This document shows positions 1,898 to 39,416 of a DNA stretch of 40,901 nucleotides, piece by piece; within the stretch, counting starts at the first letter, position 1; the number at the start of each line of letters is the position of its first letter. A program made the position numbers and the translations under genes. The notes under the pieces were generated by a model. The model made no database searches and was not told the origin of the DNA. It was given only the letters and a program-made list of their open reading frames with translations. The stretch is from a virus: UHGV virus genome UHGV-1629914; one strand, given 5' to 3'.

Positions 1898-2000
1898 ATT
1901 TGGGATGGACTCTTACGTTTATTTAAGAATAAAATACCACAAGTTGTCAAGTTTTGCTAACTTTGACGACTTGTGGTACGTCTATTTTGTACATGCATCA

Positions 2001-2439: not shown

Positions 2440-4344
2440 CTACAAAGATTTGAACAATTCCTCGTATGTTACAATTTTCTTGCCTTTTGCAAGTGCTGCT
2501 TTCATTTTGTTCGACAGCTTGTTGACATCATTTGTGACAACATAGTCACATGCATCAATGTTTGCACCGACATCTTCAAGCTTACCATTTGTTGCATCAA
2601 TAAATGCACCTTTTGTCGCCCAAGTAGGCTTAGGCGAGCCTGTCATAACAACCTTGATTGTATCAGCGTTCGTAGATGCTTCTTTGTGCATTTCATTGAA
2701 CATTACGAAGCATTGCGGGTATTGTTTGAGCAATCTTTGAATGACATTCAACTTTATGAGCTTATCAATTGGCTCCATACTTAAGCCCTTAAAGTCATAT
2801 TGGCAATTGCTGAAGTACGCAGATAACTGATACGCTGCTTTGCTGCCAAGACCAGGAATCTGCATGCATTCAATGAAATGCGATAAGTGAATGCTATTGA
2901 AGCGTTCACGTAAGCCTGTAATGACTGCACAGTCATTTTTGCTATTTGTGTCAAACTGTAGCAGTTCAAACAATCTGTCATTGTCAACTTCTTGCACAAT
3001 GCAGAACAAGTCTTCAATTGTTGGCGCATCAGAGAATGTCAACATGACATCAAGATTGTCTTGTGCAATAAGCAAAGCCTCGCAAATTTTCGTAGCATAA
3101 ACCCAGCCAAGACCATCAATATTAAGCTTGCAAACGCCTTTGATAAACCTCGTGCATCTTGCAAATTCCTCAGGCATTATCAAGTGAATGCCATCGACAT
3201 ATGCATGTACAGGAATGTCAGCTTTGCTGATATCGCCAGGTTCAATGCATTCTTGAATGTCTGGTATGATGTCACCGCCCTTTTCAATACGAACAAGAGC
3301 ACCTGGCCAGATACCATTTGCATGCAAAAAGCCGTAGTGAAATGCAGATGCAGCCTTGACTGTAGTGCCATCAAGCTCAACAGGCTCAAGTTCAACTCTG
3401 GGAAAGAGTTCACCATTGATTCGTTGACGCCAATCAATTCGAGTTACTCGAGTTACAGCAGACATTGCGTCAAGCTTCAATGCAACCATGTTTGCATATT
3501 CTGCTGCATTTGCAAACTGCTGCTCAATCCACAAGTCATCTGCAAAAGGCTTGACTACAATGCCATCAATGCGATATTTGAATTCTGGGCGTTCATTAGC
3601 AATTTTTGTGCAAGTTTCTGCAAACTCATTGTAATCAGTGACTTCAAAGACTTCTGCAATGAATTCTGCAGGCCAGCCAACTTTAGCAAGAGCATCTGCA
3701 GGATTGGTTTGCTCGTATGTTTTGCCATCAAGTGTGTCAGTCAGCATGTATGCCATAGGGTCAATGTCTTCCATGCCACACATATCTAATGACTTCACAA
3801 ATGCCGCAGCAGTATTACGCTCATTTTTGTATTTAACTGAGCCATCAGAGTTGAAGTGATATTTTTGTGCAAAAATGTCTTTTGCAATGACAGCTTCAAA
3901 GCGAATCTGATATGGCTGTTCTGCTGCAGCAAGCTGCATCGGCACTTTGCCTGCTACAACAAATTTGCGCGTGACATCATAGCCCGTGTAGCCATCACCA
4001 CGAGTAACAACTTTCAGCAATCTGCCATCAGTGTCGTAATGTGCTTCACAGCCCATGCCGTCATACTTGTGCATAAGTAACATTTTATAACCAACAATGT
4101 TGCACACAATATCATGCAATGTGGTTGTAAACTGTGATTTTGTATGAATTGCAGCAAGACTCAATGCAGGTGTAAGATGCTTAACTTCTTGCTTATTTGA
4201 CTCTTCAAAGCGAATCTTATGTTTGATGTCGCTATTTGCAAGAAGCTGCTGTTCAAGAGCATCAAATGCCTCATCAGACATTATCGGATTGCCTGCATAA
4301 TACGCAGCTATTGCGTCATGGTACATATTGAGTGTATCAGTCAT
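2440..4344 (-). CDS. ligA: NAD-dependent DNA ligase (LigA family)
   Basis: 634 aa with adenylation motif KYDG, the LigA-typical VTRGDGYTGYDVT block, DGIVVK, and a C-terminal region resembling HhH/BRCT. Confidence 0.88.
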   Translation of the reverse strand: MTDTLNMYHDAIAAYYAGNPIMSDEAFDALEQQLLANSDIKHKIRFEESNKQEVKHLTPALSLAAIHTKSQFTTTLHDIVCNIVGYKMLLMHKYDGMGCEAHYDTDGRLLKVVTRGDGYTGYDVTRKFVVAGKVPMQLAAAEQPYQIRFEAVIAKDIFAQKYHFNSDGSVKYKNERNTAAAFVKSLDMCGMEDIDPMAYMLTDTLDGKTYEQTNPADALAKVGWPAEFIAEVFEVTDYNEFAETCTKIANERPEFKYRIDGIVVKPFADDLWIEQQFANAAEYANMVALKLDAMSAVTRVTRIDWRQRINGELFPRVELEPVELDGTTVKAASAFHYGFLHANGIWPGALVRIEKGGDIIPDIQECIEPGDISKADIPVHAYVDGIHLIMPEEFARCTRFIKGVCKLNIDGLGWVYATKICEALLIAQDNLDVMLTFSDAPTIEDLFCIVQEVDNDRLFELLQFDTNSKNDCAVITGLRERFNSIHLSHFIECMQIPGLGSKAAYQLSAYFSNCQYDFKGLSMEPIDKLIKLNVIQRLLKQYPQCFVMFNEMHKEASTNADTIKVVMTGSPKPTWATKGAFIDATNGKLEDVGANIDACDYVVTNDVNKLSNKMKAALAKGKKIVTYEELFKSL

Positions 4345-5047: not shown

Positions 5048-5078
5048 ATTGTACAACAAAAATCTCAAATTTGCACAC
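5048..5078 (-). promoter_or_regulatory. class A promoter-like motif (GTGCAAAnTTTG ... TTGTACAAT on the coding strand)
   Basis: Motif lies about 27 nt upstream of the ATG at 5021; the same bipartite motif recurs at 18458, 20724, 20843, 28548 and 38529. Confidence 0.5.
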
Positions 5079-7980: not shown

Positions 7981-8376
7981 TTATCGATTCTTTGAAAATG
8001 AAACTTGTGTTGATTGCTGTGGTCGTATGTCAACAAACACTGAATCTACTGCATCAAACTTAAGCGTAGCAAGTGAATCAATTGTTTGTCTTGCTTTTTG
8101 CAAATTGCGTGCTTTGATGCCTGATACTGTTGCAGACTTTTCAAGCAGATATGCATCACGAGGCGTCCAGTAACGAGCTTGCCAACGCATATGCATAGAG
8201 TCGACAATCAGATTTTCTGCTGCAGCATCAATAATTGCTGCAGTTGATTGCTGAGTTGCATCAAGTCGTTGCTGTAACACCGCCAATTGTTTTGTGTGCT
8301 GTTGCTGTTGTTTGAACACTACGCTGATTGCGCCAAATAAAAGAAACCACGCAATAAAATGCAAAAATGACTTCAT
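7981..8376 (-). CDS. putative membrane/secreted protein (131 aa)
   Basis: N-terminal hydrophobic segment FLHFIAWFLLFGAISVVF; ATGA overlap with the clamp-loader stop. Confidence 0.5.
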   Translation of the reverse strand: MKSFLHFIAWFLLFGAISVVFKQQQQHTKQLAVLQQRLDATQQSTAAIIDAAAENLIVDSMHMRWQARYWTPRDAYLLEKSATVSGIKARNLQKARQTIDSLATLKFDAVDSVFVDIRPQQSTQVSFSKNR

Positions 8377-9347
8377 GATTGCTGCACGAATTTTGAGAGC
8401 TCGAATGATAATGCGAGCATTGTTATGAATTGGTCAATTGATTGTTTCGACTCTACGCCATATTTGTGAGCTGCAATGACAATGTCTCCAAGTCGTGCAA
8501 CAAAACCAGGCGTGTTCTTTGATAGCTTTGCATAGCACCAATTTGCAAAGTCAGTTGAGAGAGCATTGATGACTTCGGTTTCACGACCTTTGTATTGTGA
8601 CAGTGTTTGATAATGTGTTCTTGGGTCTTTGCAAGTCACAATAAATTCGTACAACTCTTCAAACTTTGCTGACATGCCCTTTGTGACATGCTCAAGTGTT
8701 ATGTGACGCTCGCCTTGATTAAAGACAAAGTAGCAAATGTTCAGAATTTTGCGGAAGTCTGGGTAGTTATCTTGAATGAGCTTGATGAGTGCCTCTTTTT
8801 CAATTGTGCATTCATTTTCTTTCAAGATATTGTAGACGCGAACCATACACTTCTTCATCAACTGTTCTGCAACATCATCAGAAAAGTCGAATGATAGCAT
8901 TTTGAGACGAGATTGAGCAATTGCATTTTCAATTCTGTCTGGATAATTACAAGTTGCAATGAAAAATGCAATGCCTGCAAACTCTTCAATGGTGCCTCGC
9001 AAAGCCATCTGACTTTGTGTCGATAGATAATCCATTTCATCAAGCAGCACAACCTTTACGCCACTTGACGACAATGACATATGCTGACAGAATTCTGAAA
9101 TTGTGTTGCGAACTGTGTCAATGCCAGAATTCTTTGAGCAGTTGATTTGCAAAATCGAACGTCTATCAGTCCACTTCAATGCCAATGCTCTTGCTGCGGT
9201 TGTTTTCCCACTTCCTGGTGCTCCTGCGAACAAATAATTTTGCGGTTGACCATTAAATGCTGCAGCATAATCATCAGGCACAATTAACTCTTCGACTTTT
9301 GTTGGTCGATATTTTTCAAGCCAAGTTCTATCTTTAAGGGATGCCAT
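8373..9347 (-). CDS. clamp loader ATPase (RFC-like AAA+)
   Basis: WLEKYRP box, Walker A GAPGSGKTT and Walker B VVLLDEMD. Start moved to the internal ATG (MASLKDR) because the ORF-track extension to 9380 overlaps the upstream conserved motif. Confidence 0.8.
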   Translation of the reverse strand: MASLKDRTWLEKYRPTKVEELIVPDDYAAAFNGQPQNYLFAGAPGSGKTTAARALALKWTDRRSILQINCSKNSGIDTVRNTISEFCQHMSLSSSGVKVVLLDEMDYLSTQSQMALRGTIEEFAGIAFFIATCNYPDRIENAIAQSRLKMLSFDFSDDVAEQLMKKCMVRVYNILKENECTIEKEALIKLIQDNYPDFRKILNICYFVFNQGERHITLEHVTKGMSAKFEELYEFIVTCKDPRTHYQTLSQYKGRETEVINALSTDFANWCYAKLSKNTPGFVARLGDIVIAAHKYGVESKQSIDQFITMLALSFELSKFVQQS

Positions 9348-9364: not shown

Positions 9365-9415
9365 ATGTGATATGATGCAAAATGCATATTCATATTGTAT
9401 ATGAATATGATACAA
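9365..9415 (-). promoter_or_regulatory. class B conserved upstream element (about 50 bp)
   Basis: Near-identical copy at 14415-14470 (ATGATGCAAAATGCATATTCA ... GAATATGATACAACA on plus); both lie just upstream of replication genes. Confidence 0.5.
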
Positions 9416-9423
9416 CAAACGTG

Positions 9424-10548
9424 TCATTTTTGCACAGCATGACCGCAATCGTACACAGGAACATAGCCTGCGTCAAGCATCTCTTGCGCATCTTGCCCGC
9501 AGTCTTCAATATGTTCTTTTGTCTTCAAATGACACCAGTGTTTGCGAATTGTTGACCTGTCATCTGACAGCTGCGGATTGAGTGCGAAGTCAGTTGAGTC
9601 TACTGGTTCACCTGCAAGATGCTTTCGAATGATGTCAATGATTTGGCTGTCGTCCATCCATTCGAATATCGTTATGCAAGTGTAGCCATGTTGAATAGCA
9701 AGTTGAGTTTTGTTAAAGTGATAGTCAAAAGGTCGCAACCAATTGCGTGATGATTGTTGACGCAAATATGAATATGAATATGCAGAATTATGAGAAAACG
9801 TCGGATTGATTTCAATTAGCACATTGTTAAAGTGCAAGTCGTATGAAAATCTGTCAAAATGCACATCATCATATGAAAAATCTATGCCAAGTGTATCAAG
9901 CAATTTATTATGCCATTGTATGTTAACATTTGATTTTGCTGCGCCTGCTTGTCTGCATTGTATTGTCATGCAATTCCATGGCACACCATATCGTTCTTCA
10001 CAAGTTTTAGACACGTCACTTGGCGCTCTAAACAAATGGCCGTATTTGTTCATTTTTGTAGTGACCATTTTATTGATATCGCCAAATGCATTGCCGTGCT
10101 TTTTAATTTTGCCGGCAACCATATTTGTAGTATTGCCATTAGACTTGCCATAGCGCGCTTCATTTGTTCGTCTACGTTTGTCTAAATCACCACAGCCATT
10201 GCCATAAATTTCAAGCTTTCGTTTTTGTGCAAGCTTAACGTTGCCAAATGCATTGCCGTATATGGCTTCTTTAGTTTTTAGCATTTTGTCTATGCCGCCA
10301 TGCCCATTGCCATATCGTGCATATTTTGTTGCAACGCCTTTTTGCACATGTTCATGCACTTGATTAGCATTTTCTACGCCATGTCTTTTTAATGTGCCAA
10401 TTTTGACATTGTAATGAATTTTAATACTACTATGTGATGTCTTGTATTTTGCATATCTCACAAAGGGTGTTTCTGCAAGCAATCTATCTCTTTCCTCTTC
10501 AAGCTCTTTAATTCGAGCTTCAAGAGCTTCTCCAGTTAGTGGTTCCAT
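9424..10548 (-). CDS. homing-endonuclease-like protein with seven tandem K/R-rich YG repeats
   Basis: 374 aa: N-terminal coiled-coil-like segment, about seven repeats of roughly 19 aa (K-x-YGN-x-G pattern), and a C-terminal region (LIEINPTFSH ... GYTCITIFEW) resembling the C-terminus of ORF 21877..22707. Confidence 0.45.
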   Translation of the reverse strand: MEPLTGEALEARIKELEEERDRLLAETPFVRYAKYKTSHSSIKIHYNVKIGTLKRHGVENANQVHEHVQKGVATKYARYGNGHGGIDKMLKTKEAIYGNAFGNVKLAQKRKLEIYGNGCGDLDKRRRTNEARYGKSNGNTTNMVAGKIKKHGNAFGDINKMVTTKMNKYGHLFRAPSDVSKTCEERYGVPWNCMTIQCRQAGAAKSNVNIQWHNKLLDTLGIDFSYDDVHFDRFSYDLHFNNVLIEINPTFSHNSAYSYSYLRQQSSRNWLRPFDYHFNKTQLAIQHGYTCITIFEWMDDSQIIDIIRKHLAGEPVDSTDFALNPQLSDDRSTIRKHWCHLKTKEHIEDCGQDAQEMLDAGYVPVYDCGHAVQK

Positions 10549-10784: not shown

Positions 10785-13700
10785 TCAAAAGCCTCGATTC
10801 ATCAGTTCATCAGCAAGTCGTTCAAGTTCAGTAGCAGCTTTTTGTCGCTTGGCTTCTCTTTCTGCTTCAACATCTGCTTTGCTTACTGGTGATTCCAAGT
10901 CTTTTGCAGGTGCATCTTCAATAACAGTCAAATTGCTGTCATCAAACTTGTTGTCAATGTCAACTCGTTTGAATGATATGATGCCTGATGACACCTGAGC
11001 TTCTGCTTGTTGTTTGTCAAATACAAGACTACTAATCGTTGATTGCAGTTTTGCAGATGCCAGCAATCGTTCTGTGTTATCTGCAAAAATGTCATCAGTA
11101 AACAATACATGCAGCATTTGAGCAATCGAATCACGACTTCTGCTGTAGCCACTGTCAAATGCAGGCAACTGCTTAATTGCATAGATGTCGCCATCATGTA
11201 CAGTAATTGCATTGAACATGCGCCTTGCAATTGATGCAACCGAATCAAGTACGTCTGGTGATTGTGGTGTGTAGCCTCGTGAATCAAAGTATATGAGTGC
11301 AGAGTTCTTAACAATTTGGTCGACAACTTCTGATGCAATTGAAACTGCATCTTTGCTATTGTTGAAGACATCATTCAGCATATATGACACAATCTTGATG
11401 TTTGATTCATGCATTGTGCCACTTGAGCCCGCATCAAATATTGACACTGCGTCTTTGATTGATTTGAGTCTTGCAAGTCGATACATGTCTTTGTTGTCAA
11501 TGACATACATATCGATAGTCTTCATGATTGTGTCAAACAAGTAATGATGTGACAATGTTCGCAATGCATGTCGCCAATCATCAAATACTCGTCTGTCTTC
11601 TACAAGATATGTAAGCTTGCCATTTTTCTTGACAAGTTCAAATCTGTCTGATTCTTGAACTTGCTCTGCTGGCAAATTCATGATGACTTCGAATGTGGCT
11701 TGATTGACAAATGATGCAAACATTTTGCCAATCTTGCTGTTCTTTTCTTGACGGTACTCTGCTCGAGCTTCTTTTGCTGCATTGAGAACTTGAGCAATCA
11801 TCATGTCATCTGCAACAACATCTTGTACGACTTTGCATTCATAGCCATATGATGACAACGTGTTTTGAATGATGACAAGCTGAGTAGCCCATTGTCGCCA
11901 TTTCTGCTCAAACATATTGAGCTTGTATGCAGTCAAGTGAATCTTGATTTCACCTGTGTACGGGTCACGATAGAAATACGGTGCATTGAATGCCCATTCA
12001 AAGAAATCAAAGAGACTTCTTGAGTCATTGCGCTTTGTCTGCATTTGCAAAATGTCCCAGAATGACAGCTTTTCAACATTTGTCAATGTCAAGTCAAGCT
12101 CATCATATGCAGTAATGTTTCGTGGGTCGCCATTCGATTTTGTCATACTGAAATACACATATGACTGAATGGATATTTTGCGAAGCCGTGAGTTAAATTG
12201 TTCGATTTCTTGACCTGTAAATGCCTCGTCATAAATGACATCGAATTCGTAGCTGTCATTGATATCAATGCCAACTGACAAGTAATTTGTGCAAAACAGC
12301 AGTTCAATATCACCGATTGTACCAGATTCATTGATTGATTGAACAAAGTCATGCATTGCATTATCACGCTTGTAATACTTGACTTTCGGATTTCTGCCAA
12401 GCATCATTCGAACTGCGCCTACAATTGCATGAGTAAATGCATCGCCTTTGTTTGTTGGGAACAGAATTCGTTTGCCTGCTTTAATTGCTGTTGAGATATG
12501 TGATGCAAGTTTTGTAATCTTGTCGCCGTCATGTTTGCAGCAGACAAATCTGACACCTTTGTTGTAATTAAGCGGCTTGTCGCAGAATATGACAGTGTCA
12601 AAATGACAGAACATGTGTTCAGCTACAGGTGTGCCTGTCATCAAAATGACTTTTGTCTGCAACTTTGTTAAGTTGTCAATTACATTTGCAGGCACAACAT
12701 CACGATATGCAGACATTGTCAACAAGTGTGACTCGTCGACGACAACGTAGTCATATAAAATTGATACTTCCTCTGGGTCAGCTAATGTAAACTTATCGAA
12801 TGTCAAAGCTACATTGACATGCTTAGACAATTCAAGACCGCGCTGACCAAATGAGCAATACATGCCAAGGTCTGACATCTCAATCTTTGATTGCAAGATT
12901 GATGTGTATGGTTCAATCAGCATGACTCGTTTTCCATCACGAGTAAGCTGTTTGATGAATTCTGTCTTGCCTGAGCCTGGCCGTGCAATCAAGTAATTGA
13001 TGCCAGTTACAAATGCTTCTTCAAGTTCATGCTTGTATGTTGACAAGTATTCATTTTCTGCAAGTTTGAAGACATGCGTATGTCGAAGTTCAAAGTCTTT
13101 TTGCTGTGCAACTTTCGACATAATGTACTGGCTGATTGCATCTTCTGTGTTGTGTTCAGCAATCAGTTCATTGACAGTTACAGATGACTTGTTAGCAAAC
13201 TTGAATTTGAAGCCATGCTTTTCACGAAGTTCTTTGACAGATGACCACACACATGGACAAGTACCTGCAGCATTACGTTCAACTGCAGACCTGAATGAGT
13301 TTGCCCAGCTGTTATGCTCTGCATTGAACTTTGGGTTGCCTGAACACATTTGCAAGAACATTTGCAACACATGTTCATATTGACCACCTGTAGTTGACTT
13401 CAAATCATATAAAAATGCTAAAGTATATGCAAGTCTGTATCTACCAGTGTTATCGTAGTTTTGTGGAGTGATTGTGAGCATTGTGCCCTCTTCAATCATT
13501 GTGATGTCGTCACGTTGAGTAAAGACTTGCTCGCCGTCAGTCATTGCAGTCATATGAGACTTCGGTGCATAATCAAAACGACCACGAAGTCTATCAAACA
13601 TTGTCTTCAGTTTGTCGATGCAGAATTTTGCATCAACTGAAGCATAGATGCTAACATCAAACTCTGGTTGCTCAATGAATTGCGCGTTTTGATTGATGAT

Positions 13701-14384
13701 GACATCTTTATCTCGTGCAACAAACAGTGGCTGACTAATTTTGCAAACGGATGCATCGACTACTCGAGATTCAGACATTTGTCCAGACTTTTCAAGTCGT
13801 CTTGACAACGTGTTATTTACAGGATGCACTTCTCGAGCCATGTCATGATTGCCCTCTGATTCAAGCTGGTCACTCAGCAACACAAGGCATTTCCAAATGA
13901 CATACAGTTTTGCTTCATATGCATCAAGATATGTTTTCTTTGCTGCAGAAGCATTTTCAGATGACACAAATACAGCGTCTTCAGTTTGAATTGACAGAGG
14001 CTTTGAGATTGTGTAGACGTGCAAGCCTGAACCAGAAGTTGACTTAAGCACAGCAACACACCACGGATATTTGCAAAGCATTGCAGCCAAACGTGGTTTG
14101 ATGATTTCTACGAGTTCTTTTGAATGGAAGTCCAAATCGACTGGCTGCAAGCCTGACCAAGTCAAGTAGTCATGAACTTGCTGTTTTGGTCGAGCAAACA
14201 TTGTCGATTGCGACACAAAGGGACGATGTGCTTTATCTACTGTGTCAAGTGACTCATCATTTGCAACTTTCATGATGAGGTCATACAATGAAATTTGTTG
14301 CTTATTGACAGTGTCTTCTGTTTTACGAACACTGTCGCCCATCATGAACTTTATGCCACTGAGCAAATCTTTGACGTTTGACAT
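10785..14384 (-). CDS. putative DNA primase-helicase (AEP-like primase motif plus SF2-type helicase motifs)
   Basis: 1199 aa: N-terminal KSTSGSGLHVYT (primase motif-II-like), then Walker A IARPGSGKTE, Walker B VVVDESHLL and TGTP motif III. Confidence 0.55.
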   Translation of the reverse strand: MSNVKDLLSGIKFMMGDSVRKTEDTVNKQQISLYDLIMKVANDESLDTVDKAHRPFVSQSTMFARPKQQVHDYLTWSGLQPVDLDFHSKELVEIIKPRLAAMLCKYPWCVAVLKSTSGSGLHVYTISKPLSIQTEDAVFVSSENASAAKKTYLDAYEAKLYVIWKCLVLLSDQLESEGNHDMAREVHPVNNTLSRRLEKSGQMSESRVVDASVCKISQPLFVARDKDVIINQNAQFIEQPEFDVSIYASVDAKFCIDKLKTMFDRLRGRFDYAPKSHMTAMTDGEQVFTQRDDITMIEEGTMLTITPQNYDNTGRYRLAYTLAFLYDLKSTTGGQYEHVLQMFLQMCSGNPKFNAEHNSWANSFRSAVERNAAGTCPCVWSSVKELREKHGFKFKFANKSSVTVNELIAEHNTEDAISQYIMSKVAQQKDFELRHTHVFKLAENEYLSTYKHELEEAFVTGINYLIARPGSGKTEFIKQLTRDGKRVMLIEPYTSILQSKIEMSDLGMYCSFGQRGLELSKHVNVALTFDKFTLADPEEVSILYDYVVVDESHLLTMSAYRDVVPANVIDNLTKLQTKVILMTGTPVAEHMFCHFDTVIFCDKPLNYNKGVRFVCCKHDGDKITKLASHISTAIKAGKRILFPTNKGDAFTHAIVGAVRMMLGRNPKVKYYKRDNAMHDFVQSINESGTIGDIELLFCTNYLSVGIDINDSYEFDVIYDEAFTGQEIEQFNSRLRKISIQSYVYFSMTKSNGDPRNITAYDELDLTLTNVEKLSFWDILQMQTKRNDSRSLFDFFEWAFNAPYFYRDPYTGEIKIHLTAYKLNMFEQKWRQWATQLVIIQNTLSSYGYECKVVQDVVADDMMIAQVLNAAKEARAEYRQEKNSKIGKMFASFVNQATFEVIMNLPAEQVQESDRFELVKKNGKLTYLVEDRRVFDDWRHALRTLSHHYLFDTIMKTIDMYVIDNKDMYRLARLKSIKDAVSIFDAGSSGTMHESNIKIVSYMLNDVFNNSKDAVSIASEVVDQIVKNSALIYFDSRGYTPQSPDVLDSVASIARRMFNAITVHDGDIYAIKQLPAFDSGYSRSRDSIAQMLHVLFTDDIFADNTERLLASAKLQSTISSLVFDKQQAEAQVSSGIISFKRVDIDNKFDDSNLTVIEDAPAKDLESPVSKADVEAEREAKRQKAATELERLADELMNRGF

Positions 14385-14414
14385 ATTTTGTTGTTGCTTT
14401 TTGTTTGGTCAAAA

Positions 14415-14470
14415 TTATATTGAATATGATGCAAAATGCATATTCAAATTATATTGAATATGATACAACA
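14415..14470 (-). promoter_or_regulatory. class B conserved upstream element (second copy)
   Basis: Near-identical to 9365-9415; about 30 nt upstream of the ATG at 14384. Confidence 0.5.
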
Positions 14471-14486
14471 CTTGTGACATTTTTGC

Positions 14487-15128
14487 TTAGAATGCGACAC
14501 CGACATGTGCGCCAATCATAGCAGCTTTTGAGTCAACTTGCTTCATGCAGCCTGCATCAAGACCGATACGCCATTGTAAACTACCCTTGCCAAATTGACG
14601 AGTGTATGACAGCCAATACATATCAATTGACTGTTTGTCAAATGTGCCAAATGCATAGTGAAAGTCTACATTATTTCGTGGTGCATCATTGTCAATGACT
14701 TTGATTGTCGTAGTCTGCACTTCACGAATAACTGTGTCTGCTTTGAACATCAAAATGTCCCAATCACGTTGCTTGATTGTGTTTTGTGTGACATAGTCTT
14801 TTATTGCTATTTGCAGTTTGTCTGACTTCAATGTGTCTGTGTACTCATATTGTGCAAAGTAGTCATTGACATATTGCATGAGCTTTGTTGTATCGATGTC
14901 AACTACAAGTGTAGTGTCACGATACACTGGCACTGGCACAGTTTTGCCTGGCAATCTTATTGTGTCATGCTTAATGAACGTATCTACTTTGAATGTTGGT
15001 TCTGCATTTATAGCATCTTGATATGTTTGCCAGTCTTTTGGACTAACAAAATGCCAATCTTTGAAAATCATGACAGCAGCCAATACAATGACTGCTGTTA
15101 CGACTATGATTTTGAGTGTCTTCAACAT
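14487..15128 (-). CDS. membrane-anchored hypothetical protein (213 aa)
   Basis: N-terminal transmembrane segment LKIIVVTAVIVLAAVMIF. Confidence 0.5.
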   Translation of the reverse strand: MLKTLKIIVVTAVIVLAAVMIFKDWHFVSPKDWQTYQDAINAEPTFKVDTFIKHDTIRLPGKTVPVPVYRDTTLVVDIDTTKLMQYVNDYFAQYEYTDTLKSDKLQIAIKDYVTQNTIKQRDWDILMFKADTVIREVQTTTIKVIDNDAPRNNVDFHYAFGTFDKQSIDMYWLSYTRQFGKGSLQWRIGLDAGCMKQVDSKAAMIGAHVGVAF

Positions 15129-16730: not shown

Positions 16731-16797
16731 ATTGTCGAAATCTTGTTTGTGTTATATGTACACAAAACTGCACCAGCAATTTTGCTGGTGCAGCTGG

Positions 16798-17049
16798 TTA
16801 ATTGTTGAGATACTGTTGAAGTTCTACTTCTGTTGCATGTCTGCATTGCTTAACATTGAACACTGTCATAGCATTGCAACTTTTGCATTTATGCCAAATT
16901 TCAGCTACTGCAGTTTGTTCGTTCTTTGGCAATGAACGTCTGTACTTGACAATATCTGTGGTACCGCAGTGTCTACAAGTACCAAGTACAACATACAGTT
17001 TTGAGTTAGTCGCGCTCAATTGTGACATGTCTAACTTCCGCTTCTTCAT
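16798..17049 (-). CDS. small zinc-ribbon-like protein (83 aa)
   Basis: Two CxxC pairs (CRHCG and CKSC); overlaps the downstream gene by about 44 nt. Confidence 0.4.
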   Translation of the reverse strand: MKKRKLDMSQLSATNSKLYVVLGTCRHCGTTDIVKYRRSLPKNEQTAVAEIWHKCKSCNAMTVFNVKQCRHATEVELQQYLNN

Positions 17050-18457: not shown

Positions 18458-18486
18458 ATTGTACAACATGCAAAACGAGTTTGCAC
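18458..18486 (-). promoter_or_regulatory. class A promoter-like motif
   Basis: Coding strand reads GTGCAAACTCGTTTTGCATGTTGTACAAT, about 30 nt upstream of the ATG at 18427. Confidence 0.5.
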
Positions 18487-19664: not shown

Positions 19665-19908
19665 TTTGTGTATGTTCTTGATTTGCTTGTTCTGCTAAAT
19701 TGTCTATAAAAGCTTTGAGCAATGTAATGATTGTTGTTAGCAACTGAATTTGAAACAATACAATGCTAAACACTACAATTGCTACAATGCAAATTGAAAT
19801 GAAGAGCATATTGATGTCAAATTTGTTTGCTATCAATGTTTGCAGCCAAGTTATGACTGCAAACATTGAAATCAGTATGAATGTTTTGTGCTGTGATAAC
19901 GATTTCAT
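19642..19908 (-). CDS. small membrane protein (88 aa)
   Basis: Two hydrophobic segments (FILISMFAVITWL and ICIVAIVVFSIVLF); ATGA overlap at 19905-19908. Confidence 0.4.
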   Translation of the reverse strand: MKSLSQHKTFILISMFAVITWLQTLIANKFDINMLFISICIVAIVVFSIVLFQIQLLTTIITLLKAFIDNLAEQANQEHTQNDSGTAN

Positions 19909-20624
19909 TTGAAATGTATGGATGTTGGATTAGTGTCGGTCATTCTAACATGCCAGTCATAAATGAACCATCTTGCGAGGTCGTCATTTTTGATGTTATG
20001 AGTTTTGACATACTGTTCAGGACCTAATGACTCGCCGGTTTCAGGATTGACTGCGAAGTGGGATTCATCTACATTAGTAGACTTGTTTTTGATGTTTGAG
20101 ATTCGGAGCTTTGTATGCAGTTCAGTGCCGTCAGATTGTAGTGTTTTGACATAGAATGCAGTTTTTGTTGTTGCTTCATTGTCAAGCCATACTCCAAACT
20201 TAACTCCATGTGATTTCCAATATGCATTGTCAGCATCCCTGATTGCTTTGAAGTTCGGGTCATCAAGCCAAGGCTTGAAGACGTATACAGCATGTTGTTC
20301 TTTTCGAGTGATTTCGCCTTTGCCTTCACAAACTGTATGATACAGCCGCATTGCAGTTTCTTCATCAAAATAGTAAGTCAGATTGCCTGGCTTATCGAAT
20401 GTGCCAAGCTGTTGACCATCGATTACGAGAATGAATGTGTAATGCGAATCCTTGAAGAACTCTACTCGTACAGGTTGTTTGTGCTGTCTGCTGTTAAGCA
20501 GTCTGTCAATTGTAATGACTGCCCAGTTGGTGCCTGTCTTTGTTTTGTTGCCATGAAACAGTTCAGGATATGAAACTGTGTAAGGCAATGCTTTGTACTT
20601 CCAATGTTCATTAAAGCTTTTCAT
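19905..20624 (-). CDS. hypothetical protein (239 aa)
   Basis: ORF-track frame preceded by the repeat- and promoter-rich intergenic region 20625-20975. Confidence 0.55.
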   Translation of the reverse strand: MKSFNEHWKYKALPYTVSYPELFHGNKTKTGTNWAVITIDRLLNSRQHKQPVRVEFFKDSHYTFILVIDGQQLGTFDKPGNLTYYFDEETAMRLYHTVCEGKGEITRKEQHAVYVFKPWLDDPNFKAIRDADNAYWKSHGVKFGVWLDNEATTKTAFYVKTLQSDGTELHTKLRISNIKNKSTNVDESHFAVNPETGESLGPEQYVKTHNIKNDDLARWFIYDWHVRMTDTNPTSIHFK

Positions 20625-20646: not shown

Positions 20647-20700
20647 TATCAATTGCATTCTATATCAATTGCATTCTATATCAATTGCATCTTGTATCAA
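20647..20700. repeat. 16-bp direct tandem repeat, about 3.4 copies (TATCAATTGCATTCTA)
   Basis: Two exact copies, one variant copy and a partial, each containing the palindrome CAATTG, in the 5' leader of gene 19905..20624. Confidence 0.85.
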
Positions 20701-20723
20701 ATACATTATATTGATATATGATA

Positions 20724-20754
20724 ATTGTACTACAAAAATCCCAAATTTGCACAC
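20724..20754 (-). promoter_or_regulatory. class A promoter-like motif
   Basis: Coding strand reads GTGTGCAAATTTGGGATTTTTGTAGTACAAT. Confidence 0.45.
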
Positions 20755-20797
20755 TTTGATAATCAAAAGTGCAAACAAAATTCAAAGTTATATTGTA

Positions 20798-20829
20798 CAT
20801 CATAAAGTGCAAATTTGCACTTTATGATG
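20798..20829. repeat. 32-bp perfect palindrome CATCATAAAGTGCAAATTTGCACTTTATGATG
   Basis: Exact reverse-complement symmetry checked base by base; contains GTGCAAATTTGCAC, the core of the class A motif. Confidence 0.85.
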
Positions 20830-20842
20830 CTAAAATGTTGCC

Positions 20843-20871
20843 ATTGTACAACGCTTTGCGCTATTTTGCAC
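20843..20871 (-). promoter_or_regulatory. class A promoter-like motif (second copy in the same intergenic region)
   Basis: Coding strand reads GTGCAAAATAGCGCAAAGCGTTGTACAAT. Confidence 0.45.
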
Positions 20872-20975
20872 AAAGCAGCATGTTAAAATGTAACCATTTA
20901 TAACGCTGCAAATGTCTGCATAAAATAAGCAGCTTAGCAATCTAAGCTGCTGTCATTGTATGCATGCAGTCACTG

Positions 20976-21461: not shown

Positions 21462-21491
21462 GCAAATATATTTTTGTTTGTATATGTACAT

Positions 21492-22735: not shown

Positions 22736-22811
22736 GCAGCGCACCGAGATTCGAACTCGGACTCCCACCACTACAGTGGTACTCTACCGTTAAGCTACAC
22801 GTCTTTACAAG
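22736..22811 (-). other. tRNA-like element: clear T-arm plus 3' acceptor strand, 5' half does not fold canonically
   Basis: CCGAG-TTCGAAT-CTCGG then TGCGCTG-C at 22760-22736; no complementary 5' acceptor strand or cloverleaf found by hand upstream. Confidence 0.25.
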
Positions 22812-22889
22812 TGCCAAACACTGCAATATTTGACAAAAGTGCCAACATCAATCTACGTTCAATTGCAGTTGAATTAGTAGATATCGTTG

Positions 22890-22973
22890 AGCCAGTGGTC
22901 AGATTCGAACTGACGTGAGGCAATGCCTACCGGGTTACAAATCCGGTGGAGTCGACCGCTGTCCCACACTGGC
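22890..22973 (-). tRNA. class II (long variable arm) tRNA, anticodon ambiguous: loop UUUGUAA gives UGU by canonical register
   Basis: Perfect 7-bp acceptor GCCAGTG/CACTGGC, D-arm GGA-CAGCGGTCGAC-TCC, anticodon stem CCGGA/CCCGG (one A-C mismatch), variable arm AGGC-ATT-GCCT, T-arm GTCAG-TTCGAAT-CTGAC; 84 nt, no encoded CCA. Confidence 0.6.
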
Positions 22974-23044
22974 ATAAAGTCGTTGGGCCATTGCAACCCA
23001 AACCTATCATCTTTGCCTAACCAAAGATGCAAGCGCTCTCTTAC

Positions 23045-23116
23045 ACCACGACTTGTAGCCGAACTTGGAGTCGAACCAAGCTTTCGAGAATGAAAATCTC
23101 GCGTCCTAACCGATAG
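23045..23116 (-). tRNA. tRNA-Glu (anticodon UUC)
   Basis: D-arm GTCT-ATCGGTTA-GGAC, anticodon arm CGAGA-TTTTCAT-TCTCG, T-arm CTTGG-TTCGACT-CCAAG; acceptor GGCCGTT/TTCGGCT has two U-U mismatches. Confidence 0.6.
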
Positions 23117-23314
23117 ACGAAACGGCCAAGAGCAGTTCAAGTCTGCAGCATTGAACTGCGGAAGCAATGCCTGTACGGGCAGCAAATTGTGCAGATACAG
23201 CGACATTGCAAAATCACACCGAACCAAGTTTGTGCTTTCGAATATCAATTTGTATTGACCGCAGTCATTATACTTGGCACCAATGACTACTGATGTAAAA
23301 ATCGGTGTGTTACG

Positions 23315-23399
23315 CGGAGAGTAAGGGATTCGAACCCCTGGTACGTTGCCGTACAGTGGTTTTCAAGACCACCGCCATCGACCGCTCGGCCAACTCTCC
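23315..23399 (-). tRNA. tRNA-Ser (anticodon UGA), class II
   Basis: Perfect acceptor GGAGAGT/ACTCTCC, D-loop GAGCGGTCGAT, anticodon arm GTGGT-CTTGAAA-ACCAC, variable arm GTACG-GCAA-CGTAC, T-loop TTCGAAT. Confidence 0.8.
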
Positions 23400-23592
23400 G
23401 TAAAACATTGCATAAGCATTCTTATCTCTTGATGAGACCAAGTAGCTAATTTGGCAAGTTTGTTATATCTATCGTGACTGCTGCAGTTTGTTTGTCACTC
23501 AATACACAAAACTTTCGAACATTCATTGACAGCACTGCAATATCGCTTTTTAAGCTCAGCCATCAATGTATTTATGCAATGTATAACAATTC

Positions 23593-23674
23593 GTAGCCAA
23601 ACCGGGACTTGAACCCAGACTCCTAATGGAACAACATTTTGAGTGTTGCGTGTCTACCAATTCCACCATTTGGC
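23593..23674 (-). tRNA. tRNA-Leu (anticodon CAA), class II
   Basis: Acceptor GGCCAAA/TTTGGCT, anticodon arm CAACA-CTCAAAA-TGTTG, long variable arm, T-arm CTGGG-TTCAAGT-CCCGG. Confidence 0.8.
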
Positions 23675-23778
23675 CATTTGCAAATGCAAGCTGTTTCACA
23701 ACTGTTTGCATTTGCTGTCGTAAATTCGTATTGTTTAACTTCTAAAACAGAATTCATCTAATTAAAACCAGAGAATTG

Positions 23779-23851
23779 TAGGGAAGACCGGACTCGAACC
23801 GACGACCACTTGCTCCCAAAGCAAGCATGCTACCAACTGCACCACTTCCCT
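23779..23851 (-). tRNA. tRNA-Pro (anticodon UGG)
   Basis: Perfect acceptor AGGGAAG/CTTCCCT, D-loop AGTTGGTA, anticodon arm CTTGC-TTTGGGA-GCAAG, T-loop TTCGAGT. Confidence 0.8.
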
Positions 23852-23857
23852 AAATTG

Positions 23858-23929
23858 TTGAGACGGCAGAATTCGAATCTGCATTACAGGAACCAAAATC
23901 CTGGGTCTTAACCATTGGACGACGTCTCA
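23858..23929 (-). tRNA. tRNA-Gln (anticodon UUG)
   Basis: Perfect acceptor TGAGACG/CGTCTCA, anticodon arm CAGGA-TTTTGGT-TCCTG, T-arm GCAGA-TTCGAAT-TCTGC. Confidence 0.75.
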
Positions 23930-24061
23930 ATCAAATGCAAATCTTTGTAAGGCGTTTGCAATCCTGTAATTTGTTTATGTATTTTTGTTTATTTAGTAAT
24001 TATATGAATATATTACTACAAACATTTATGATTTGCACAATATACTGCAACTTTGTATCAC

Positions 24062-28547: not shown

Positions 28548-28576
28548 TATTGTACAACAAGAATGCAAAACTTGCA
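28548..28576 (-). promoter_or_regulatory. class A promoter-like motif
   Basis: Coding strand reads GTGCAAGTTTTGCATTCTTGTTGTACAAT, about 30 nt upstream of the topoisomerase ATG. Confidence 0.5.
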
Positions 28577-28594
28577 CTGAAAATATACACATTT

Positions 28595-30917: not shown

Positions 30918-31142
30918 GCATTATCATTGTTATCAATGACTTCTATGCATTTGATTGAGTTAAAGTCCATATTGCAGAGATTTTACTATATTGTGTTCGA
31001 ATATATGAGAACATATATTATTTATAGATATATAATACTACACACTTGCAGATTTTGCACTTAGTTGATAAATAATTTGTAAACATTTTCACAAACTTTT
31101 AACAGCTCTTTCGCTTATGAAAACTACTCAACTCTGGTTTGA

Positions 31143-38528: not shown

Positions 38529-38556
38529 ATTGTACAACAATGCGCAAAATTTTGCA
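38529..38556 (-). promoter_or_regulatory. class A promoter-like motif
   Basis: Coding strand reads TGCAAAATTTTGCGCATTGTTGTACAAT, upstream of the reductase ATG. Confidence 0.5.
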
Positions 38557-38557
38557 T

Positions 38558-39237: not shown

Positions 39238-39323
39238 TGTAGTAGAGGTTAAAATATATTAATATATAATAATTATATTACAAAGTTGTCAGATTTGCAC
39301 CAGAATGTATAACAAGTTCACAC

Positions 39324-39369
39324 AAAATTACAAACAAAAAACAAGCAGACTGCAATTACAGCCTGCTTG
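39324..39369 (-). terminator. intrinsic terminator
   Basis: Stem CAAGCAGACTG / CAGCCTGCTTG (one mismatch) followed on the minus strand by TTTTTTGTTTG, just downstream of gene 39417..40856. Confidence 0.55.
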
Positions 39370-39416
39370 CGCAAAAACAGAAAAAGATGATAACTTACTA
39401 ACCCAAAAACCTAATT

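What the first reader, a model, noticed from the sequence alone, without database searches (positions are those of the whole stretch)
5048..5078. Class A bipartite promoter-like motif recurring upstream of at least six minus-strand genes
On the coding strand, GTGCAAA(N)TTTG followed after about 8-15 nt by TTGT(A/T)GTACAAT occurs 25-45 nt upstream of the ATG at 5048, 18458, 20724, 20843, 28548 and 38529, with relaxed variants near 35170-35200 and 39255-39290. Both topoisomerase subunits and the reductase are among the targets. TTGTACAA and GTGCAAATTTGCAC are palindromic, suggesting a dimeric DNA-binding protein or a phage-specific promoter class.
Basis: seen in the sequence. Interest (0 to 1): 0.5.

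Follow-up and report, generated by a model that had tools for sequence, protein, structure and literature searches.

The report
Phage-specific two-part promoter family
The repeated motif is a real, strand-specific two-box promoter used about a dozen times in this window by an uncultured large gut phage to switch on its DNA-replication genes, and it is probably read by the phage's own sigma factor rather than by the host's.

Summary
The motif is real. On the coding (minus) strand it reads [G/A/T]TGCAAA-N15-GTACAAT, with fixed spacing. A matrix trained on copies outside the window finds 13 sites on the coding strand, 1 on the other, against 0.45 in shuffles. All 13 lie in the 8% of the window that is non-coding. 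They precede both topoisomerase II subunits, ribonucleotide reductase, the clamp loader, a primase-helicase, a ligase operon and a tRNA cluster.

Elsewhere in the roughly 175-kb genome the same motif precedes DNA polymerase B, a gp32-like protein and a gp55-like late sigma. Relatives with 61-65% TopoA identity from four other samples carry it too (8 sites, all on the coding strand).

The geometry is sigma-70-like: a 17-bp spacer, with T-12, A-11 and T-7 nearly invariant. It matches neither TTGACA nor the Bacteroidota TAnnTTTG box. The host is probably Bacteroidota: 1 of 40 genes has a Shine-Dalgarno motif, and gene order matches phages PAU and MA9V-1.

The phage encodes a 298-aa sigma with regions 2 and 4, whose own promoter looks host-type. 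My best reading is a pre-replicative ("middle-like") promoter class read by that sigma. This step is inferred, not shown. The palindromes are an optional extra, present in 13 of 27 sites. Overall this is a new member of a known kind, of moderate interest.

The parts
5048..5076 (-). Class A promoter: GTGCAAA-N15-GTACAAT. It lies 26 nt before the ATG at 5021, the first gene of the unit that runs into the NAD-dependent ligase gene (2440-4344).
   Evidence: (35.1 bits)
9407..9435 (-). Class A promoter (GTGCAAA-N15-GTATCAT), 59 nt before the clamp-loader gene (8373-9347). Its leader carries a hairpin.
   Evidence: (37.5 bits)
14460..14488 (-). Relaxed class A promoter (AAGCAAA-N15-GTATCAT), 75 nt before the 1199-aa primase-helicase-like gene (10785-14384). 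A host-type TAATTTTG box follows at 14417.
   Evidence: (19.1 bits)
18458..18486 (-). Class A promoter, 30 nt before the topoisomerase II subunit A gene (17006-18427).
   Evidence: (31.3 bits)
20724..20871 (-). Three tandem class A promoters (20871-20843, 20820-20792, 20752-20724), downstream of a terminator and upstream of gene 19905-20624.
24010..24038 (-). Class A promoter (GTGCAAA-N15-GTAATAT), 80 nt before the tRNA cluster.
   Evidence: (30.1 bits)
28549..28577 (-). Class A promoter, 30 nt before the topoisomerase II subunit B gene (26524-28518).
   Evidence: (36.9 bits)
31032..31060 (-). Class A promoter (GTGCAAA-N15-GTATTAT) before small ORFs (30717-30917). The sequence downstream of it differs between strains.
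   Evidence: (21.1 bits)
38529..38557 (-). Class A promoter (ATGCAAA-N15-GTACAAT), 41 nt before the intein-containing ribonucleotide reductase large-subunit gene (35266-38487).
   Evidence: (24.1 bits)
39272..39300 (-). Relaxed class A promoter (GTGCAAA-N15-ATATAAT; GTATAAT in the two sister contigs), 34 nt before gene 38770-39237.
   Evidence: (18.0 bits)
1931..1959 (-). Weak candidate class A site (10.8 bits), 33 nt before gene 896-1897.
39341..39370 (-). Intrinsic-terminator-like hairpin (13 pairs plus a T run) just upstream of the promoter at 39300. It marks a boundary between transcription units.
20928..20951 (-). Intrinsic-terminator-like hairpin just upstream of the triple promoter.
22737..23929 (-). 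Cluster of 7 tRNA genes transcribed from the promoter at 24038. This non-coding target shows that the motif is a transcription signal, not a translation signal.

Best explanation
Class A is a clade-specific promoter of the sigma-70 family type. It has a -35-like box xTGCAA(A) at -35..-29, a 17-bp spacer counted hexamer to hexamer, and an extended -10-like box TGTTG-TACAAT at -17..-7. The start site is probably in the conserved A[T/C]ATA about 7 nt downstream.

It starts the pre-replicative transcription units of a roughly 175-kb uncultured phage related to the Bacteroidota phages PAU and MA9V-1. These units cover topoisomerase II A and B, ribonucleotide reductase, clamp loader, primase-helicase, ligase, DNA polymerase B, a gp32-like protein, tRNAs and the gene for a gp55-like late sigma.

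The most likely reader is host core RNA polymerase carrying the phage's own 298-aa sigma, which has both region 2 (binds -10) and region 4 (binds -35). That sigma gene sits behind a different promoter that resembles the host type. The suggested cascade is: host sigma, then phage sigma, then class A genes including the late sigma, then -10-only late promoters ('class B').

Shown: the motif, its geometry, its strand and position bias, its conservation, the gene set and the sigma genes. Inferred: which sigma reads it, the timing and the start site.

Confidence by step:
- It is a promoter: about 0.9.
- It is read by the phage sigma, given that it is a promoter: about 0.6.
For: Enrichment and placement
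- 13 sites on the minus strand and 1 on the plus strand, against 0.45 in shuffles. All are intergenic in a window that is 92% coding.
- 33:1 strand bias in the 82.6 kb I hold of sister contig A, with every site at a gene 5' end.
- The strict pattern occurs 12 and 10 times in the two sister contigs, and at most once in any other IMG/VR contig.

Geometry
- Spacing is fixed. T-12 is present in 27/27 sites, A-11 in 26/27 and T-7 in 26/27.
- Positions not used to select sites are also conserved.

Transcription-unit context
- Terminators lie directly upstream of some copies.
- One site drives only tRNAs.

Conservation
- Between strains the spacers change but the boxes and the spacing persist.
- Four syntenic relatives from other samples carry 8 sites, all on the coding strand, against 0.03-0.14 per locus in shuffles.

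Not a host-type promoter
- The canonical TTGACA/TATAAT scan shows no enrichment and does not flag these sites.
- The -12..-5 stretch reads TACAATAT, against TAHHTTTG in Bacteroidota (PMC6847099).

Host likely Bacteroidota
- 1 of 40 genes has a Shine-Dalgarno-like motif.
- Gene order matches MA9V-1 and PAU.
- The PAU host is a Sphingobacterium (reference cited in PMC10537231).

Phage sigma
- L272:2830-3726 scores 34 bits for Sigma70_r2 and 31 bits for Sigma70_r4, and matches PHROG 351 at E=4e-26.
- Its upstream region matches the MA9V-1 TAnnTTT[G/A]-type motif and carries no class A site.

Comparison across phages
- PAU has an analogous bipartite class, TGAAAC-N16-GTATAAT, before its topoisomerase genes.
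- The -10-like cores are alike in the three phages, as is sigma region 2.
- The -35-like boxes differ, as does the region 4 helix.

Timing
- The gene set equals that of T4 middle genes (PMC2988021), and it includes a gp55-like sigma.
Against: - There are no transcript 5' ends and no expression or binding data. The assignment to the phage sigma rests on correlation across three phages and on an inferred host phylum.
- The host is not known. If it is not Bacteroidota, its primary sigma could read xTGCAA-17-TACAAT directly.
- I hold only about 60% of the genome, so other regulators (MotA/AsiA-like proteins, further sigmas) cannot be excluded.
- MA9V-1, which also encodes a homologous sigma, puts a host-like TAnnTTTG motif before the same kinds of genes. 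Replication genes in this group therefore need not depend on the phage sigma.
- The phage sigma could instead serve class B.
- The dyad in half of the sites is unexplained by this model.
Confidence: 0.55

Rival explanations
1. Class A sites are early promoters read directly by the host's primary sigma factor, as with T4 early promoters. Their unusual consensus is just phage-specific fine-tuning, or it reflects a host whose consensus is close to xTGCAA-17-TACAAT.
For: - The geometry is sigma-70-like: a 17-bp spacer, with T-12, A-11 and T-7 nearly invariant.
- T-34 and G-33 match the best-conserved positions of TTGACA, and three sites read TTGCAAA.
- MA9V-1 places a host-like promoter before the same gene classes.
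- Strong phage promoters often deviate from the host consensus (PMC2988021; PMC2839356).
Against: - The -35 box matches only 3 of 6 positions, and the canonical scan does not flag the sites.
- The near-absence of Shine-Dalgarno motifs (1/40), the Bacteroidota relatives and the host-type promoter before the sigma gene all point to a Bacteroidota host.
- That host's sigma needs T-8, T-6 and G-5. Class A has A at -8 in 27 of 27 sites and no G at -5 (PMC6847099).
- Separate TAHHTTTG boxes exist in intergenic DNA of the window.
Confidence: 0.25
2. Class A works like T4 middle promoters. A host sigma reads the -10 box, while a phage activator, with or without an AsiA-like co-factor, binds TGCAAA in place of a -35 contact (sigma appropriation).
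For: - The gene set (replication, nucleotide metabolism, tRNAs, late sigma) is the same as that of T4 middle genes (PMC2988021).
- The -10 box is excellent while the -35 box is non-canonical.
- The phage has T4-like replication and late-transcription parts: Gp44_lid, gp32 and a gp55-like sigma.
Against: - The box is TGCAAA, not TGCTT.
- It lies 16 bp from the -10 hexamer, not 12 +/- 1 bp (PMC2988021).
- No MotA or AsiA family hit appeared among the proteins I scanned. The scan was not exhaustive and covers about 60% of the genome.
- If the host is Bacteroidota, the -10 box still does not fit the host sigma.
Confidence: 0.08
3. The element is mainly an operator for a dimeric phage or host DNA-binding protein (repressor or activator) that recognises the TGCAAA/TTTGCA and TTGTACAA palindromes.
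For: - An inverted copy (5 nt or more) of the -35 box lies in the spacer of 13 of 27 sites, against 1.5 expected.
- Perfect palindromes occur at 20820 and in relative L401: GTGCAAAATTTGCAC.
Against: - 14 of 27 sites lack the dyad.
- The second arm sits at varying distances.
- The whole spacer can be swapped between strains.
- The motif shows complete strand bias and a fixed distance to an asymmetric -10-like box.
Confidence: 0.07
4. The copies are chiefly recombination cassettes (like PeSL elements of T4-type phages) that spread and shuffle genes. Any promoter activity is secondary.
For: - Differences between the window and sister contigs abut promoters at 9435, 20752-20871 and 31060.
- A promoter-proximal segment of the window (9437-9735) matches a different promoter locus in contig A.
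- Terminator plus promoter pairs occur, and in PAU the -35 box lies in a hairpin loop, as in PeSLs (PMC2839356).
Against: - PeSLs are themselves functional promoters, so this reading is compatible with the promoter reading rather than an alternative to it.
- Class A also precedes conserved core genes, not only variable ORFs.
- There are too few breakpoints for firm statistics.
Confidence: 0.05

Closest known systems
Bipartite motif of Sphingobacterium ('Sphingomonas') phage PAU: CTGAAAC-N16-GTA(T/C)(A/T)AT, seen here in the PAU genome. I found no published description.
   Same: - It has two boxes at fixed spacing: 22 nt from the T of the upstream box to the G of GTA, against 21 nt here.
- The -10-like core is the same, (T)GTAGTAyWAT.
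- It lies before the topoisomerase II A and B genes and other replication-module genes.
- The phage encodes a homologous sigma with a region 4-like helix.
   Different: - The upstream box is TGAAAC, not TGCAAA, and sits in the loop of a terminator-like hairpin.
- The class A matrix does not score PAU sites.
- TopoA identity between the two phages is only 37%.
T4 middle promoters (MotA box plus sigma-70 -10 element; sigma appropriation)
   Same: - The class of genes served is the same: replication, nucleotide metabolism, tRNAs and the late-transcription factor.
- The -10 element is excellent, with a non-host element where the -35 box would be (PMC2988021).
   Different: - The MotA box is (a/t)(a/t)(a/t)TGCTTtA, 12 +/- 1 bp from the -10 element. 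Here the box is TGCAAA at 16 bp.
- No MotA or AsiA homologue was seen.
- A full phage sigma with region 4 is available instead.
Promoters read by phage-encoded sigma-70-family factors. Examples from my own knowledge: Bacillus phage SPO1 gp28 and gp33/34, and T4 gp55. For jumbo phages, Iyer et al. 2021 (PMC7824862) describe 'group 2' phages that all encode sigma factors of a minimal and a fuller type.
   Same: - The phage encodes both a fuller sigma (regions 2 and 4) and a gp55-like minimal sigma.
- It has at least two phage-specific promoter consensus classes distinct from the host's.
   Different: - The consensus sequence is new.
- The pairing of sigma with promoter is not demonstrated here.
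Bacteroidota primary-sigma promoter (-33 TTTG / -7 TAHHTTTG)
   Same: - T-12, A-11 and T-7 are shared.
- This type of box does occur in the phage, before its sigma gene and at five intergenic places in the window.
   Different: - Class A has A at -8 and lacks T-6 and G-5.
- Its upstream box lies 16 bp from the downstream element, not 19-21 bp (PMC6847099).
PeSL cassettes of T4-type phages (strong sigma-70-like promoter plus stem-loop terminator that mediate modular shuffling; PMC2839356, PMC4122927)
   Same: - The promoter units are repeated and often lie next to terminators.
- Tandem copies occur.
- Strain differences are located at the copies.
   Different: - Many class A copies have no adjacent stem-loop and serve core genes.
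- Recombination between copies is suggested but not shown.

Membership tests
Sigma-70-family -35/-10 promoter (general architecture) | Two conserved boxes separated by 17 +/- 1 bp, co-oriented with and upstream of the transcribed gene | tested here: met
   GTGCAA and TACAAT are separated by exactly 17 bp in all strong copies. 13 of 13 window sites are intergenic and on the gene strand.
Sigma-70-family -35/-10 promoter (general architecture) | -10 element with T-12, A-11 and T-7 | tested here: met
   T-12 in 27/27 sites, A-11 in 26/27, T-7 in 26/27.
Sigma-70-family -35/-10 promoter (general architecture) | Transcripts start 5-9 nt downstream of the -10 element | not testable with these tools
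   No RNA data are available. The only indirect hint is the conserved A[T/C]ATA at the expected place.
E. coli-type housekeeping promoter (TTGACA-17-TATAAT) | -35 hexamer matching TTGACA in at least 4 of 6 positions | tested here: not met
   GTGCAA matches 3 of 6 positions. The consensus scan flags none of the sites and shows no enrichment of canonical promoters: 59 against 56.2, and 59 against 54.6.
Bacteroidota primary-sigma promoter | -7 element TAHHTTTG at -12..-5 (T-12, A-11, T-8, T-7, T-6, G-5 nearly invariant; PMC6847099) | tested here: not met
   Class A reads TACAATAT at -12..-5. A at -8 in 27/27 sites, A or T at -6, and no G at -5.
T4 MotA-dependent middle promoter | MotA box (a/t)(a/t)(a/t)TGCTTtA, 12 +/- 1 bp upstream of the -10 element (PMC2988021) | tested here: not met
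   The box is TGCAAA and lies 16 bp from TACAAT.
T4 MotA-dependent middle promoter | Phage encodes MotA and AsiA | tested here: inconclusive
   No such family appeared among about 45 proteins scanned with Pfam or PHROGs. About 40% of the genome was not available and small ORFs were not scanned.
T4-type late promoter (gp55) | -10-only element TATAAATA with no -35 box | tested here: not met
   Class A needs an upstream box at fixed spacing. A separate -10-only class (hairpin plus TGTACATATAA) fits this better.
Promoter class of a phage-encoded sigma factor | Phage encodes a sigma-70-family protein with the DNA-reading regions 2 and 4 | tested here: met
   L272:2830-3726 (contig A, about 158.6-159.4 kb) scores 34 bits for Sigma70_r2 (cut-off 24) and 31 bits for Sigma70_r4 (cut-off 24.1). 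It matches PHROG 351 at E=4e-26.
Promoter class of a phage-encoded sigma factor | The phage sigma, not the host sigma, directs initiation at the motif | not testable with these tools
   The support is indirect only:
- a mismatch to the presumed host consensus;
- a host-type promoter on the sigma gene itself;
- -10 cores and region 2 both conserved across PAU, MA9V-1 and this phage, while -35 boxes and region 4 both diverge.
PeSL-type mobile regulatory cassette | Promoter coupled to a stem-loop terminator, with recombination between copies producing indels and replacements between close strains (PMC2839356) | tested here: inconclusive
   Terminators adjoin 2 promoter loci. Strain breakpoints abut 3 promoter loci, and one promoter-proximal segment matches a non-syntenic promoter locus. 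The numbers are too small for a firm test.

The most novel reading that the evidence does not exclude
A clade of uncultured gut phages of Bacteroidota carries a self-contained, orthogonal transcription system. A phage sigma with regions 2 and 4 redirects host core polymerase to E. coli-style -35/-10 promoters (TGCAAA-N16-GTACAAT) that the host's own divergent primary sigma cannot read.

The -35 specificity has diversified together with sigma region 4 among PAU-like phages: TGCAAA here, TGAAAC in PAU.

In the boldest version the sigma is delivered in the virion. The RefSeq note on PAU gp1 calls it an 'internal capsid vertex protein'. Class A would then be immediate-early and independent of any host sigma.
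Probability: 0.4. Interest if true: 0.6.

Novelty: new member of a known kind. Interest (0 to 1): 0.42.

Why it matters
- **Regulatory map.** The finding gives a concrete map for an uncultured roughly 175-kb phage lineage whose proteins mostly have no family assignment. It covers at least 13 transcription-unit starts in this window and more than 30 in the part of the genome I hold. It also gives a testable three-step cascade: host-type promoter, then phage sigma, then class A genes including the gp55-like sigma, then late promoters.
- **Possible tool.** If the phage sigma does read class A, the pair would be a compact orthogonal sigma/promoter module for Bacteroidota, where E. coli promoters do not work (PMC6847099).
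- **Evolution of specificity.** Comparison with PAU and MA9V-1 would offer a natural series for how sigma region 4 and -35 boxes change together.
- **Annotation.** The motif marks true gene starts. For example, topoisomerase A starts at 18427, not at the upstream TTG or ATG.

Tried and rejected
1. Megablast of 20 kb against 50,697 phage records found no match.
The same happened for the MA9V-1-type motif TTTCATATGT-N13-TANATTT. Only the 16-base strict pattern was informative.
3. The canonical sigma-70 scan does not see the sites.
4. The two proteins over 1000 aa with no Pfam hit were checked as possible phage RNA polymerases. PHROGs and PDB sequence searches found nothing. Motif inspection suggests that the 1199-aa protein is a primase-helicase, with GSGKT and DESH motifs. 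The 1068-aa protein remains unknown.
5. The protein at 39417-40856 came up as the best hit of a two-sequence sigma profile (E=0.002-0.0045 in a small database). The aligned stretch is helical and low-information, not region 2, and Pfam shows no sigma domain. Rejected.
6. tblastn with the MA9V-1 sigma against the sequence I held found nothing. The homologue appeared only with a seven-sequence alignment.
7. Host search with the only plus-strand gene (31143-31868) against 185,579 genomes found no relative.
8. None of 78 IMG/VR relatives with TopoA identity of 40% or less has class A, and no shared motif lies upstream of their topoA genes.
9. I tried reading class A as a Bacteroidota -33/-7 promoter on either strand. 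The spacing and the key bases do not fit.
10. A naive ORF mask placed 7 of 33 contig-A sites 'inside' ORFs. All seven lie 0-81 nt after an upstream in-frame ATG, which in one case is the ATG within the motif itself, and another in-frame ATG follows 1-45 nt after the -10 box. This is an artefact.

Full report
**What is in the sequence**

Read on the minus strand, 5076-5048 is GTGCAAAtttgagatttttgttGTACAAT, followed 26 nt later by an ATG. The same two boxes recur with exactly 15 nt between GTGCAAA and GTACAAT at these places:
- 18486-18458
- 20752-20724
- 20820-20792
- 20871-20843
- 28577-28549 (GTGCAAG)
- 38557-38529 (ATGCAAA)

Copies with a relaxed second box (GTAnnAT) lie at 39300, 31060, 24038 and 9435.

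- One strong copy (20792) was missed.
- The TTTG after GTGCAAA is not conserved.
- The spacing is fixed, not variable.
- The 'variant' at 35170-35200 belongs to another motif class.

**Is it more than chance?**

The window is about 96% identical to two IMG/VR contigs of 175.6 and 174.6 kb, which I call A and B. The strict pattern TGCAA-N12-TGTTGTACAAT occurs 12 times in A and 10 times in B, always on one strand. It occurs at most once in any other of the 2.9 million viral contigs.

I trained a position matrix on 15 copies from parts of A that lie outside the window, then scanned the window:
- 13 hits on the minus strand, 1 on the plus strand, and 0.45 on average in shuffles.
- All 13 minus-strand hits are intergenic, although 92% of the window is coding.

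In the 82.6 kb of A that I hold, the count is 33 to 1, and every site sits at a gene 5' end.

Positions that played no part in choosing the sites are also conserved. TGTT lies at -17..-14 (21-26 of 27 sites), and A[T/C]ATA lies around the expected start point.

**Anatomy**

With TACAAT taken as the -10 hexamer, T-12, A-11, A-8 and T-7 are present in 26-27 of 27 sites. The upstream box occupies -35..-29. The hexamers GTGCAA and TACAAT are 17 bp apart.

This is the geometry of a sigma-70-family promoter. The -35 box, however, shares only 3 of 6 positions with TTGACA (the T and G among them). A canonical scan neither flags these sites nor finds any excess of canonical promoters.

Strong terminator-like hairpins lie just upstream of the promoters at 39300 and 20871.

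The site at 24038 is followed only by a cluster of seven tRNA genes. The signal therefore acts on transcription, not translation.

The distance from the -10 box to the start codon is 26-41 nt at six sites and 59-114 nt at four.

**The palindromes**

An inverted copy (5 nt or more) of the -35 box lies in the spacer at 13 of 27 sites, against 1.5 expected. The dyad is thus real. It is also optional, and its position varies.

Between strains, the whole spacer of the topoisomerase A promoter has been replaced, dyad included, while both boxes and the 15-nt spacing persist.

Given the total strand bias as well, a symmetric operator is not the primary function. An overlaid regulator site remains possible.

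**What the promoters drive**

In the window:
- topoisomerase II A and B, and an intein-containing ribonucleotide reductase
- the clamp loader and the unit leading to an NAD-dependent ligase
- a 1199-aa protein with helicase motifs
- the tRNA cluster

In contig A:
- family B DNA polymerase
- a gp32-like single-strand-binding protein
- a gp55-like late sigma (PHROG 234, E=1.3e-8)

This is the gene set that Hinton (PMC2988021) lists for T4 middle transcription. Because the late-sigma gene is among the targets, class A must act before late transcription.

**What phage and what host**

No close relative exists among deposited phages. The best TopoA matches are Chryseobacterium phages MA9V-1 and MA9V-2 (39%), phage PAU (37%) and the Lak megaphages (33%).

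Gene order is shared with MA9V-1 and PAU: topoB, topoA, a roughly 1200-aa helicase, then the clamp loader. According to the reference cited in PMC10537231, the PAU host is a Sphingobacterium.

Only 1 of 40 window genes has a Shine-Dalgarno-like motif. This is a hallmark of Bacteroidota (PMC6847099).

The window is an ENA contig, ERZ27261429 k119_57943. One of its proteins recurs in an assembly labelled ZEEV15, and a relative occurs in one labelled GAIO21. I read these labels as gut metagenome cohorts. That is my inference from the names only.

The host is therefore probably a gut Bacteroidota, but this is not shown.

**Why the host sigma is an unlikely reader**

The Bacteroidota primary sigma uses TAHHTTTG at -12..-5, with T-8, T-6 and G-5 nearly invariant (PMC6847099). 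Class A reads TACAATAT there.

Boxes of the host type do exist in the phage:
- Five lie in intergenic DNA of the window on the coding strand, at 39330, 24439, 20790, 14417 and 10578.
- One lies before the phage's sigma gene (see below).

**The phage sigma**

MA9V-1 and PAU each encode a sigma-70-family protein. A seven-sequence alignment of that family retrieved a homologue in both sister contigs of this phage.
- It is a 298-aa protein.
- It scores 34 bits for Sigma70_r2 and 31 bits for Sigma70_r4, both above the curated cut-offs.
- It matches PHROG 351 at E=4e-26.

Its upstream region reads cattttCATATGTGacaaaaaatgatTAAATTTAtataacaaattaaaac. This closely follows the dominant intergenic motif of MA9V-1, TTTTCATATGTC-N11-T[AT]A[AT]ATTT[AG], and the stretch before PAU's sigma gene. 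No class A site lies nearby.

Iyer et al. (PMC7824862) had noted that jumbo phages of this 'group 2' all encode sigma factors of a minimal and a fuller kind. This phage has both.

**Comparison of promoter classes across phages**

PAU's replication module carries its own bipartite class, CTGAAAC-N16-GTA(T/C)(A/T)AT. Nine sites have exactly 22 nt from the T of the first box to the G of the second, and one has 23 nt. They lie before topoB, topoA and other genes.

The -10-like cores of the three phages are alike:
- GTACAAT here
- GTATAAT in PAU
- GTATTAT in MA9V-1

The invariant residues of the sigma alignment cluster in region 2: KFS-YA--WIKK.

The -35-like boxes differ:
- TGCAAA here
- TGAAAC in PAU
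- TGTCAAA in MA9V-1

The region 4 recognition helix has no invariant position.

This parallel is the main argument that the phage sigma reads class A. It is an inference from three genomes.

A second class, which I call class B, lacks any -35 box. It consists of a hairpin followed by TTTTGTGTACATATAACA, at 16760, 21488 and 35198. PAU and MA9V-1 have counterparts. It would suit the gp55-like sigma.

**Conservation in closer relatives**

A protein search found TopoA homologues of 57-65% identity in ENA and Logan assemblies. Four syntenic loci from different samples (L398-L401, GC 31-38%) carry [GAT]TGCA[AC]A-N15/16-GTAnnAT:
- 8 times on the coding strand and never on the other
- against 0.03-0.14 per locus in shuffles
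- each time in front of a gene

More distant relatives lack it. These are 78 IMG/VR loci with TopoA identity of 40% or less, plus MA9V-1 and PAU. Class A is thus a clade-level signal, not a peculiarity of one genome.

**Verdict**

The finding is a genuine promoter family.
- Its existence, geometry and gene set are shown.
- Its timing (before late transcription) is supported by the late-sigma target.
- The identity of the reading sigma is inferred. I put about 0.6 on the phage sigma and about 0.25 on a host sigma, with the remainder on an activator-dependent or other mechanism.

It is a new member of a known kind, phage-specific promoters for phage-directed polymerase. It is of moderate interest, mainly as a possible orthogonal sigma/promoter pair in Bacteroidota.

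Noticed in passing
window 16753-16800, 21481-21525, 35191-35245 (minus strand): A second motif class ('class B'): a terminator-like hairpin followed directly by TTTT(G/A)TGTACATATA(A/C)(C)AAACAA (GCATACATATAACA at 35198), with no -35 box. It lies before genes for unknown proteins of 531, 171 and 1068 aa. Counterparts occur in PAU (hairpin plus TTTATACATATTTCATA, one before a capsid decoration gene), in MA9V-1 (hairpin plus TTTGTGTATAT) and in relatives L398-L401. It is probably the late promoter of the gp55-like sigma.
   Followed up: partly
contig A 155567-162277 (L272: ORF 2830-3726), outside the window: The phage encodes a 298-aa sigma-70-family protein with regions 2 and 4. Its promoter region is almost superimposable on the main intergenic motif of the distant phage MA9V-1, although the two sigma proteins share only about 27-30% identity.
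   Followed up: yes
contig A about 79733-80250 (outside the window): A gp55-like late sigma gene (PHROG 234) lies behind three tandem class A-like units (A80355, A80311, A80278).
   Followed up: partly
window 20647-20690: A perfect 16-nt tandem repeat (2.8 copies; ATGCAATTGATATAGA on the coding strand) lies in the 99-nt leader between the triple promoter and gene 19905-20624. Sister contig B has fewer copies. Its function is unknown.
   Followed up: no
window 39247, 30979, 20632 (minus strand); contig A 139524, 139190, 50377, 35352: A CTCT(A/G)C-N2-4-ATG motif, often as AACCTCTACTACAATG, lies immediately before some start codons. It resembles the 16S 3' end rather than its complement, so it is not a Shine-Dalgarno site. 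Unexplained.
   Followed up: no
window 9375-9406 and 14400-14459 (minus strand); contig A about 133350-133390: A sub-family of class A promoters (GTATCAT as -10 box) shares a long leader with inverted repeats: ATTCATATacaATATGAAT, then ATGCATTTTGCAT. They lie before the clamp-loader, primase-helicase and gp32-like genes. This may be a site of post-transcriptional or attenuation control.
   Followed up: no
whole window: Only 1 of 40 genes has a Shine-Dalgarno-like motif. Leaders are rich in A and C, and A occupies position -3 in 19 of 40. This fits translation of the Bacteroidota type.
   Followed up: partly
window 39330, 24439, 20790, 14417, 10578 (minus strand): Five TAHHTTTG boxes (the Bacteroidota -7 element) lie in intergenic DNA on the coding strand, out of 11 on that strand in total. 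Two follow terminators (10578, 39330), and one lies 7 nt before the ATG of gene 24062-24424. They are possibly host-sigma promoters.
   Followed up: partly
window 21877-22707: A gene with a weak DUF559 (endonuclease-like) match is present in the window but absent from contig A, where about 1060 bp is replaced by about 235 bp. It is likely a mobile homing-endonuclease gene.
   Followed up: partly
window 35266-38487: The ribonucleotide reductase large-subunit gene carries an intein (Intein_splicing match at residues 338-517 of the translated ORF 35266-38547).
   Followed up: no
window 22737-22804: Rfam finds a seventh tRNA (31.5 bits) that ARAGORN does not call.
   Followed up: no
window 31143-31868 and 31890-31920: This is the only plus-strand gene (241 aa, with a weak CorA-like copper-binding match). 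It ends at a bidirectional terminator shared with the minus-strand unit, which looks like an inserted 'moron'. No relative was found in 185,579 genomes.
   Followed up: partly
window 9373-9437, 20647-20880, 30975-31014 compared with contigs A and B: Three of about six rearrangement or indel breakpoints between the window and its sister contigs lie at class A promoters. Window 9437-9735 matches a different promoter locus of contig A (86986-87284) at 85%. This recalls PeSL-mediated shuffling in T4-type phages.
   Followed up: partly
PAU record NC_019521.1, gp1 (L271/L397 94-1182): The RefSeq note on the PAU sigma factor calls it 'internal capsid vertex protein (mango) subunit 2'. This hints that the sigma may be a virion component.
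   Followed up: no
window 31944-35150 and 39417-40856: Large proteins of 1068 aa and 479 aa have no hit in Pfam, PHROGs or PDB sequences. The 1068-aa protein has a weak match (23% over 292 aa) to a hypothetical protein of MA9V-1.
   Followed up: partly
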